A stretch of 64,000 bases of DNA, from contig OZ024758.1 of the NCBI GenBank assembly GCA_964016885.1, positions 21,328,001 through 21,392,000 of the forward strand, read 5' to 3'. Shown here in pieces: positions 16,550 through 61,461 of the stretch. Source of the DNA: Eledone cirrhosa (lineage: Eukaryota). Within the stretch, counting starts at the first letter, position 1. Every line of letters starts with the position of its first letter. The notes beneath the pieces were generated by a model, which was given only the letters and a program-made list of their open reading frames with translations, had not been told where the DNA came from and did no database searches. The translations under genes were made by a program, and so were the position numbers.

Positions 16550-16629
<80 letters not shown>

Positions 16630-16661
16630 AGATCAATAGATGGTTAAAGGAGTTCCATATA

Positions 16662-16728
16662 TTTTATTATGCGCATTTCAAAAACAAACATCATCAAGCA
16701 ATAATATTTGTGTTTTCATCAGATAAAA
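16662..16728 (-). ncRNA. Type I hammerhead ribozyme (mirror copy)
   Basis: Exact reverse complement of 16851-16917. Confidence 0.8.
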
Positions 16729-16850
16729 CAGGAGAACATGATATGAAGGCTAAAAAACACTTGTGGATAGTGCAGTTTTAAATCAACATATGTTGATTTA
16801 AAACTGCACTATCCACAAGTGTTTTTTAGCCTTCATATCATGTTCTCCTG

Positions 16851-16917
16851 TTTTATCTGATGAAAACACAAATATTATTGCTTGATGATGTTTGTTTTTG
16901 AAATGCGCATAATAAAA
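16851..16917 (+). ncRNA. Type I minimal hammerhead ribozyme
   Basis: Stem I ttttat/ataaaa; CTGATGA; long stem II aaacacaaatattatt/gatgatgtttgttttt; GAAA; palindromic stem III tgcgca; cleavage triplet ATA. Confidence 0.82.
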
Positions 16918-17041
16918 TATATGGAACTCCTTTAACCATCTTTTGATCTTATATTATGCATACTCCAGTCCCACAAACTGTAGAGTGCTTCTTATCCGAT
17001 ATCTGCATTGCTTTATTGTACTACAATAAAACTCACCTCCT

Positions 17042-17818
<777 letters not shown>

Positions 17819-24361: not shown

Positions 24362-24624
24362 AGAACTGCGAAACCGGTAAAGGAACCAAATAAATATATA
24401 TATATTTTTTTTTAAATAAGACTCCAGTTGCATTTTCGATTTCATCTCTTTTTCTTTATACTTTCACTCGTGTAGGACACCTCGGTTATTTTTCATTTTG
24501 TAAAAAAAAACTCACTTTCTAATATATATATATATATATATATATTAGAAAGTGAGGTTTTTTTTACAAAATGAAAAATAACCGAGGCGTCCTACACGAG
24601 TGAAAGTATAAAGAAAAAGAGATG
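24362..24624 (+). mobile_element. Family D element 3' part, with inverted copy of its tail across (TA)n
   Basis: Same sequence as 55134-55283; palindrome 24443-24624 with a TA loop. Confidence 0.75.
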
Positions 24625-45859: not shown

Positions 45860-46203
45860 TATACACATATGCATACAGGTACACATACATATATGCACGC
45901 ATCAGTTTAGCCGACGTTTATTATAACGCCTGCTTTGTTCGTTTGTTTGTCAACAAATCGAACAGTCTGAATTTATGCCATACGGTGTTAAGGCAACCAC
46001 GTCACCTTTTTGTTCAACACTGACACAGGAACGATGTACTAGTTTCAAGCTTGTTAGCTTGTTAGCTTGCCTTAACACCGTATGGCATAAATTCAGGCTG
46101 TTCGATTTGTTGACAAACAAACGAACAAAGCAAGCGTTATAATAAACGTCGGCTAAACTGATGCGTGCATATATGTATGTGTACCTGTATGCATATGTGT
46201 ATA

Positions 46204-51522: not shown

Positions 51523-51909
51523 GGTGGTTTGGCAGTATCGGTAGAAGGTCGGACGCCATACTTTGACGCATAGAGTTACGGCCCCTTGCCATTCTGAGTT
51601 CAAATCCCGCCGAGGTTAACTTTGCCTTTCGTCCTTAAAAATCGGGATCGATAAAATAAAGTACCAGTAATGCACTGGGGTATTGCTGGCCTTGTGCCAA
51701 AAGTAGAAACAATTATATATTTTCTGGATTGGTAGTATCGGTAGAGGGTCGGACGCTATGCTTTGACACATAGAGTTAAGGCCCTTGCCATTCTAAGTTT
51801 AAATTATACCGAGGTTAACTTTGCCTTTCACCATTACGGGGTCGATAACATAAAGTACCATTAATGCACTGGGTAATTGCTGGCATTGTGCCAAAAGTAG
51901 AAACAATTA
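51523..51909 (+). mobile_element. Two tandem SINE S1 copies
   Basis: 51523-51713 and 51726-51909, bounded by attatatatt repeats. Confidence 0.9.
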
Positions 51910-51950
51910 TATATTTTCTAAATATTGTATATATGTCCTTCCGTCAAATG

Positions 51951-60754: not shown

Positions 60755-61137
60755 GTGGTGGATTGGCAGTATCGGTAGAGGGTCGGACGTCATGCTTTCC
60801 AGCATAGTTACGTCCCTTTACGATCTGAGTTCAAATCCCGCCGAGGTTGACTTTGCCTTTCATCCTTACGGGGTCGATAAAATAAAGTACCAGTAATGTA
60901 CTGGGTAATTGCAGGCCTTGTGCCAATAGTAGAAACAATTATTTAACTTGTAGGTGGATTGGCAGTATCGGTAGAGGGTCGGACGCCATGCTTTCCAGCA
61001 TAGTTACGTCCCTTTACGATCTGAGTTCAAATTCCGCCGAGGTTGACTTTGCCTTTCATCCTTACGGGGTCGATAAAATAAAGTACCAGTAATGCACTGG
61101 ATAATTGCTGGCCTTGTGCCTAAAATAGAAACAATTA
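60755..61137 (+). mobile_element. Two near-identical tandem SINE S1 copies
   Basis: 60755-60940 and 60953-61137. Confidence 0.92.
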
Positions 61138-61461
61138 TGTCTATATATTATCTGACGATAGATGAACATATTTCTGAAGCGTTAGATTATTTTACTTCTC
61201 GCGAAAAATCAACTACTAAGCTTCAACTGTTAAACCCTTGCGCAGTATTTCCAAAGGAAAGCAGTAAGAAAACATATTTTTATTGCTCCATGAAACATCC
61301 ATGAGAAGTTGAAGTCTGTTTATTCAAAGCTGGAAACTCACCCGGCCTGTGCTTATCCTTCTTATCATCGGATTCCTTGAAGTTAAGCGACTGCAACGAA
61401 GCTCTCCTGACAGGACTTCTGTCTATCGTAGGTTTAATTCTGCAGCTAATTCTAGGACACA

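What the first reader, a model, noticed from the sequence alone, without database searches (positions are those of the whole stretch)
16622..16957. Spacerless 336-bp palindrome carrying an intact hammerhead on each strand
Seen: 168-bp arms, one mismatch, no loop, and a full CTGATGA/GAAA/ATA ribozyme at 16851-16917 (+) and 16662-16728 (-). Inference: this is a very young insertion. Transcription from either strand gives a long dsRNA hairpin that competes with the ribozyme fold and would be an ADAR or Dicer substrate; the DNA could extrude a cruciform.
Basis: partly seen in the sequence, partly recalled or inferred. Interest (0 to 1): 0.75.

Follow-up and report, generated by a model that had tools for sequence, protein, structure and literature searches.

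The report
Head-to-head Hydra-clade Penelope retroelement stub
This mirror-image stretch is real but common: it is two short copies of the ribozyme-bearing end of a very abundant Penelope-like jumping gene joined head to head, one of about 700 with the same centre in this genome, likely built on the spot by copying the start of the element's RNA onto both cut DNA strands.

Summary
The palindrome (168-bp arms, one mismatch, no loop) and both type I hammerhead motifs are confirmed. It is not a singular object. The hammerhead pattern occurs 18,330 times in this genome and the same loop-less centre at 697 loci. Full-length copies encode an RT plus C-terminal endonuclease with the diagnostic motifs of the Hydra clade of Penelope-like elements (PLEs). 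The insertion is the known PLE architecture: inverted 5'-truncated pLTR, one-sided tail, (TA)n target. Opposite-strand hammerhead pairs are already in print. The copies add mechanism. In 102 of 105 typed head-to-head pairs one arm ends at site A (+167-170) and the other at site B (+258), giving an 86-bp tail. At least 37% of copies start at one base (+1), against 1.6% at a control site, and 48% of those carry an extra G. This fits two cDNAs primed on both target strands that run off a capped RNA start and anneal through ATAT. The antisense arm would block the ribozyme rather than compete with it; no transcription, editing or cruciform was shown. The scan reported similar PLE palindromes in other genomes before. 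Ordinary locus, useful family.

The parts
16622..16957 (.). Perfect head-to-head palindrome, 168-bp arms, 1 mismatch
16622..16791 (-). Short arm: element positions +1 to +170, ending at family end site A
16788..17043 (+). Long arm: element positions +1 to +256, ending at family end site B
16788..16791 (.). 4-bp self-complementary overlap shared by both arms; 16788 (+) and 16791 (-) are the family's preferred start (+1), the inferred RNA start
   Evidence: RNA start is inference
16958..17043 (+). One-sided tail, 86 bp, between end sites A and B; in tandem copies it runs on towards the ORF
16851..16917 (+). Type I hammerhead motif, long stem II, self-complementary stem III; predicted cut after 16911
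16662..16728 (-). Mirror copy of the hammerhead motif
   Evidence: no mismatch in this part
16526..16621 (.). Left (TA)n target tract
17046..17818 (.). Right interrupted (TA)n tract
14840..14885 (-). Separate 46-bp stub of the same family ending at site A, in another (TA)n tract

Best explanation
The palindrome is a minimal head-to-head insertion of a Hydra-clade Penelope-like retrotransposon, two truncated copies of its hammerhead-bearing end in a TA repeat, likely made by priming DNA synthesis on both cut target strands. Shown: family membership, two fixed end sites A and B paired one per arm, a preferred start at +1, an excess of G before +1. Inferred: the element's endonuclease cuts both strands of a (TA)n tract; one 3' end primes reverse transcription at site B and the other at site A, 86 nt upstream on the RNA; both run to the capped RNA start at +1; the two cDNA ends, both finishing in ATAT, anneal to each other and the host fills in, which gives a loop-less palindrome with the tail on one side. 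The two hammerheads are passengers of the pLTR. The template was uncleaved RNA. The palindrome is a by-product made afresh at each site, not a unit that copies itself.
For: Family: 18,330 hammerhead-pattern matches, 0 for the reversed control; 697 loci with the same 32-bp centre. Tandem and long copies carry an 800-aa ORF whose model matches telomerase RT first (Foldseek E 1.6e-6, TM-score only 0.20) and whose motifs fit the Hydra description. Ends: 114 distinct head-to-head pairs, 105 typed, 102 A/B, 2 A/A, 1 B/B; 25 of 27 in the long-pair subset not selected on the centre. The A arm reaches further 5' in 41, the B arm in 12, equal in 49 of 102; in 15 of 102 the B arm stops at +156 or later and so barely overlaps or misses the A arm, the geometry of twin priming. 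Start: of 14,353 copies with the +1 18-mer, 5,377 have a non-template letter before it (37%) and 1,394 more are arms of perfect palindromes; control site +18: 142 of 8,654 (1.6%); 73 of 76 inspected hits truly start there. G before +1: 2,557 of 5,377 (48%) against about 20-22% from composition and 26 of the 100 listed control rows. Ribozyme cut site is no start hotspot: 225 of 17,533 (1.3%). Arms of one locus share 149 minority letters and differ at 28; only one A-versus-B difference recurs (2 loci) among 31 loci. In vitro, a PLE protein cuts and extends both strands and starts at two sites that bracket the tail (PMC11167929).
Against: No RNA data were obtained, so +1 as a capped start is inference; some G letters can be templated by the opposite arm through microhomology. 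Unequal arms could also arise by lopsided deletion at the centre of a fold-back palindrome after insertion, and shared letters by conversion between arms. For a perfect palindrome such as this locus the sequence alone cannot tell two cDNAs from one that folded back. The in vitro study saw no difference in start site between strands and used another clade. Inner ends come from BLAST and can overrun by 10-15 bases. All typed loci but the window's come from one contig and were picked by pattern; a few may be local duplicates (L141/L142, the two pairs in L038). Pfam found no family for the ORF; no tree was built against reference Hydra proteins.
Confidence: 0.72

Rival explanations
1. Same element, but one cDNA starting at B folds back at its end, copies itself and is cut or joined at A (including the published idea of self-priming on an antisense template).
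For: Explains strict A/B pairing and identical arms at once; 49 of 102 pairs have equal inner ends; proposed for head-to-head PLE palindromes in PMC3846280. Some junctions show short repeated copies of the start (L138, L143), so template jumping occurs.
Against: Needs the A arm to lie within the B arm, yet A is longer in 41 of 102 and by more than 30 bases in 15 of 25 long pairs; A arms can carry the full start and the extra G while B is cut short inside the tail (L074, L163).
Confidence: 0.17
2. The palindrome is a non-autonomous mini-element that is transcribed and copied as one unit (MITE- or retrozyme-like).
For: 697 loci share the exact centre; sizes and ends are uniform.
Against: Both arms follow the subfamily of each locus and almost no arm-specific change recurs; the centre is one of many junction forms at the same start; no tandem arrays as in retrozymes were seen in the loci read.
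Confidence: 0.06
3. Fold-back sequencing or assembly chimera.
For: Perfect palindromes beside long (TA)n tracts are hard to assemble; this locus was not checked against raw reads.
Against: Centres and both outer ends fall at fixed element positions at hundreds of loci; the left arm has a private change. Raw reads of another study show the same end A into (TA)n (459 reads at two adjacent places), 97 reads with an inverted start joined to the tail (possibly one locus or molecule) and 12 reads across an opposite-strand joint.
Confidence: 0.03
4. A selected regulatory RNA switch or siRNA source.
For: Any read-through transcript would form a 165-pair hairpin; small RNAs from PLE copies are reported in a rotifer.
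Against: One of hundreds of like copies in a microsatellite; no host gene seen nearby; no conservation or expression shown.
Confidence: 0.02

Closest known systems
Hydra clade of endonuclease-positive Penelope-like elements (Craig et al. 2021, PMC8557442; e.g. Penelope-13_HM, Hydra-1_Obim)
   Same: RT with C-terminal endonuclease; RW(K), DKT, CxCX5C, CxxC and CxH motifs; hammerhead in the end repeat; (TA)n target. Penelope-13_HM is listed with a 5'-truncated inverted copy and a hammerhead on each strand.
   Different: About 3.7 kb with a long 3' region (Hydra generally under 3 kb); RW followed by T or I; hammerhead stem II of 16 positions, unlike the listed Hydra motifs; more than 18,000 motif copies.
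General PLE insertion architecture: inverted 5'-truncated pLTR with one-sided 30-40-bp tail (PMC8557442, PMC3846280)
   Same: Head-to-head arms, palindromic junction, tail on one side only.
   Different: Tail of 86 bp; insertion reduced to the two ends; strong start hotspot with extra G.
Opposite-strand hammerhead pairs of truncated PLEs (Cervera and de la Pena 2014, PMC4209133)
   Same: Pairs 100-700 bp apart on opposite strands; long helix II; palindromic helix III, dimer-dependent.
   Different: A-U rather than G-C at the base of stem II; no bulged base after the core.
Poseidon PLE of Anolis in vitro (Frangieh et al. 2024, PMC11167929)
   Same: Both strands cut and extended; two internal start sites bracket the tail; uncleaved RNA is the template.
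   Different: No strand-specific pairing of start sites seen there; other clade.
LINE-1 twin priming (Ostertag and Kazazian 2001; recalled, title seen only in a reference list) and cap-derived 5' G (PMC3287187)
   Same: Second primer starts upstream on the RNA and yields an inverted piece; extra G at full-length starts.
   Different: Here the two cDNAs usually cover the same RNA stretch and both start sites are fixed.

Membership tests
EN+ Penelope-like element | Single ORF with telomerase-like RT | tested here: met
   800-aa ORF in L034 and L036; top fold match TERT, low TM-score; Pfam blank
EN+ Penelope-like element | C-terminal GIY-YIG endonuclease | tested here: inconclusive
   GIY-YIG-like motif pattern and a confidently modelled C-terminal domain, read by eye; no profile or fold match listed for this domain
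EN+ Penelope-like element | Partial tandems forming pLTRs, inverted 5'-truncated copy | tested here: met
   L031, L032, L036 tandems; 114 head-to-head pairs
EN+ Penelope-like element | One-sided tail of 30-40 bp | tested here: inconclusive
   One-sided tail present in 102 of 105 typed pairs, but 86 bp long
EN+ Penelope-like element | Type I hammerhead in the pLTR | tested here: met
   Core and stems present; 7 of 15 stem II pairs vary on one side and keep pairing, none on both sides (8 distinct rows)
Hydra clade | DKT in place of DKG; RWK motif | tested here: met
   DKT present; RW then T/I here, RWK in 7 of 8 aligned homologues against the description
Hydra clade | CxCX5C linker; CxxC and CxH around conserved E and N; no CCHH | tested here: met
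   All read and conserved
Hydra clade | (TA)n insertion preference | tested here: met
Hydra clade | RT groups with reference Hydra proteins in a tree | not tested
   Reference proteins were not at hand as tool sequences
Neptune clade | CX2-5CxxC linker and CCHH motif | tested here: not met
   Linker is CxCX5C and CCHH is absent; my first guess of Neptune was dropped
Non-LTR retrozyme | Head-to-tail tandem monomers each with a hammerhead | tested here: not met
   Head-to-head pair; no tandem array at the locus (definition)
Active hammerhead ribozyme | Self-cleavage | not testable with these tools
   Needs an assay; no genomic trace of cleaved templates

The most novel reading that the evidence does not exclude
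PLE inverted ends arise from an ordered two-primer reaction: each integration uses start site B on one target strand and site A on the other, both cDNAs can run off the capped RNA start, and thousands of copies in this genome record the start base and the cap as an extra G. This would replace antisense self-priming as the explanation of head-to-head PLE palindromes and give the Hydra clade an 86-nt tail.
Probability: 0.6. Interest if true: 0.55.

Novelty: new member of a known kind. Interest (0 to 1): 0.3.

Why it matters
The single locus matters little. The family matters modestly: how PLEs form their inverted ends and tail is stated as open in PMC8557442, and this genome gives large counts (A/B pairing, fixed start, extra G, no trace of ribozyme-cut templates) and a young family with open reading frames on which the two-primer model can be tested. 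Several hundred to thousands of perfect 340-bp palindromes are also a possible load of double-stranded RNA and fragile sites, untested here.

Tried and rejected
Rfam: no match at gathering score, only hairpin-driven miRNA hits below cut-off. DNA search of the own genome returned nothing because common words are skipped; patterns were used instead. Pfam and PDB sequence search gave nothing significant; 18 unnamed homologues at 29-38% identity. Neptune assignment rejected. The idea that ribozyme-cut RNA serves as template, prompted by the stub at 14840-14885 starting at the cut site, was rejected (1.3% against 1.6% control). Sequencing runs: no RNA holder listed, no evidence either way. Run X21 laid no reads, no test. 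This locus itself was not checked against reads. Arm comparisons had faulty filters and were replaced, where 5 of 36 loci had a short arm and 3 more had under 50 comparable positions. Two papers were not held.

Full report
Observation. The palindrome is as described: centre 16789/16790, 168 paired positions, one mismatch at 16637/16942, no loop. The hammerhead boxes are at 16857-16863 and 16900-16903, with stem I 16851-16856/16912-16917, a 16-position stem II with one mismatch, and a self-complementary 8-mer in place of stem III. The minus-strand copy is its exact mirror. Rfam models do not pick it up. Both flanks are (TA)n tracts. The right arm continues for 86 bp past the palindrome before the tract begins.

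Family. A pattern for the hammerhead finds 18,330 matches in the 3.0-Gb genome, none for the reversed control. The same 32-bp loop-less centre occurs at 697 loci. Copies end at two fixed places: A (+167-170, the palindrome's outer edge) and B (+258, the end of the tail), nearly always followed by (TA)n. Tandem and long copies (L031, L032, L034, L036 among 12 fetched) carry a frame of up to 800 residues. Pfam and PDB sequence searches were blank; the predicted structure (mean pLDDT 65) matched telomerase RT first, with other RTs close behind and low TM-scores. The motifs DKT, RW, CxCX5C, CxxC and CxH, the lack of CCHH, the hammerhead and the (TA)n target fit the Hydra clade as described in PMC8557442 (section 11; alignment). 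I first took it for Neptune and dropped that. No tree was built.

What the copies show. Of 114 distinct head-to-head pairs, 105 could be typed; 102 are A/B, 2 A/A, 1 B/B (9 had a broken or untyped end). Among A/B pairs the A arm reaches further 5' in 41, the B arm in 12, and 49 are equal within 8 bases; in the long-pair subset 15, 6 and 4 with a 30-base margin. In 15 the B arm stops at +156 or later. Of 14,353 copies with the first 18 bases, 5,377 have a non-template letter before +1, 1,394 are arms of perfect palindromes and 5,564 continue upstream with the usual letters; the other 2,018 were not classed. At a control site only 142 of 8,654 do so. Of 76 inspected hits 73 start at +1. The letter before +1 is G in 2,557 of 5,377, against 20-22% expected from composition and 26 of 100 listed control rows; part of these G letters can be templated by the other arm. 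The sequence around +1 resembles an initiator (recalled consensus). The ribozyme cut site is no start hotspot: 225 of 17,533. In 31 of 36 perfect-centre loci with both arms long, arms share 149 minority letters and differ at 28, with one difference recurring.

Mechanism. Shown: family, ends, start, G excess. Inferred: both strands of a (TA)n tract are cut; one end primes at B, the other at A, whose sequence is itself TA-rich and could pair with the target; both cDNAs run to the capped RNA start; their ATAT ends anneal, giving this exact centre; the host fills in. Whether one RNA is copied twice or two RNAs of one source are used cannot be told. This agrees with in vitro work in which a PLE protein cuts and extends both strands, starts at two sites bracketing the tail, is predicted to be a dimer and uses uncleaved RNA (PMC11167929, parts 1-2 of 4 read), and with the cap origin proposed for extra G in L1-driven insertions (PMC3287187, passages). 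The main rival is fold-back or antisense self-priming (PMC3846280, passages and Discussion). It predicts that A lies within B, which 41 pairs contradict, but later lopsided deletion could blur this, and for this one perfect locus the two cannot be told apart.

Young: yes, like most of its kind. Artefact: unlikely; fixed centres and ends, a private change in the left arm, and raw reads of another study showing end A, an inverted start joined to the tail (97 reads, possibly one source) and an opposite-strand joint (12 reads); this locus itself was not checked against reads. RNA switch: the hairpin is about 100 kcal/mol more stable than any fold that keeps the hammerhead, and such motifs are reported to need a same-sense partner (PMC4209133, passages), so the ribozyme would be silenced, not switched. 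Editing, dicing and cruciform remain untested.

What is known. Inverted 5'-truncated pLTRs with a one-sided 30-40-bp tail are the standard PLE architecture (PMC8557442, passages, sections 11 and 15, supplement file 1 part 2). Opposite-strand hammerhead pairs 100-700 bp apart were reported in 2014, and a Hydra element is listed with a hammerhead on each strand. An internal promoter with initiator is known for Drosophila Penelope (PMC2377424, passages). The retrozyme preprint (10.64898/2026.07.22.740005, part 1 of 5) concerns tandem units; the octopus repeat paper (PMC13282606, passages) mentions no hammerhead or palindrome. Searches listed no paper that, by title and abstract start, explains PLE palindromes by two-strand priming with a cap G; subscription papers, including older PLE reviews, were not searchable. 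This scan has already reported similar PLE palindromes and the double-priming reading in other genomes, seen after I had formed my reading; these are unchecked notes, not support.

Verdict. Real, ordinary at the locus level, a new family of a known clade. The counts make an open mechanistic question testable. Interest 0.3.

Noticed in passing
window 12900-13003, 14637-14713, 16449-16525, 41295-41400: End of a second (TA)n-abutting repeat family; twice it sits directly left of the tract that holds a copy of this family (14840, 16622). A palindromic form lies beside L021. Possibly another PLE.
   Followed up: partly
window 34868-35167, 42965-43300, 45895-46168: Three further imperfect palindromes (95%, 81%, 82% self-identity), two flanked by TA-rich repeats; MITE-like or other head-to-head stubs.
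   Followed up: no
window 24480-24590: Inverted repeat whose arms meet in an (AT)n tract; the same sequence flanks copies in L014 and L051.
   Followed up: no
window 15182-15738 (-): Open frame with a Cys/His motif like the end of an L1/Tx1-type retrotransposon (recalled).
   Followed up: no
window 31571-32535, 51525-51919, 60757-61138: Tandem 193-196-bp repeat family at several places.
   Followed up: no
L034:1692-4091 residues about 580-650: Asn/Thr/Pro-rich low-confidence insert between RT and endonuclease, absent from the 8 aligned homologues; recalls the N-rich inserts of rotifer PLEs.
   Followed up: no
L023, L025: Long duplications of flanking sequence on both sides of or beside the insertion.
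   Followed up: no
runs X4, X5 (organisms B, C) on L034:4900-5346: Close relatives of the family with the same end sites; in X5 depth starts near +1.
   Followed up: partly
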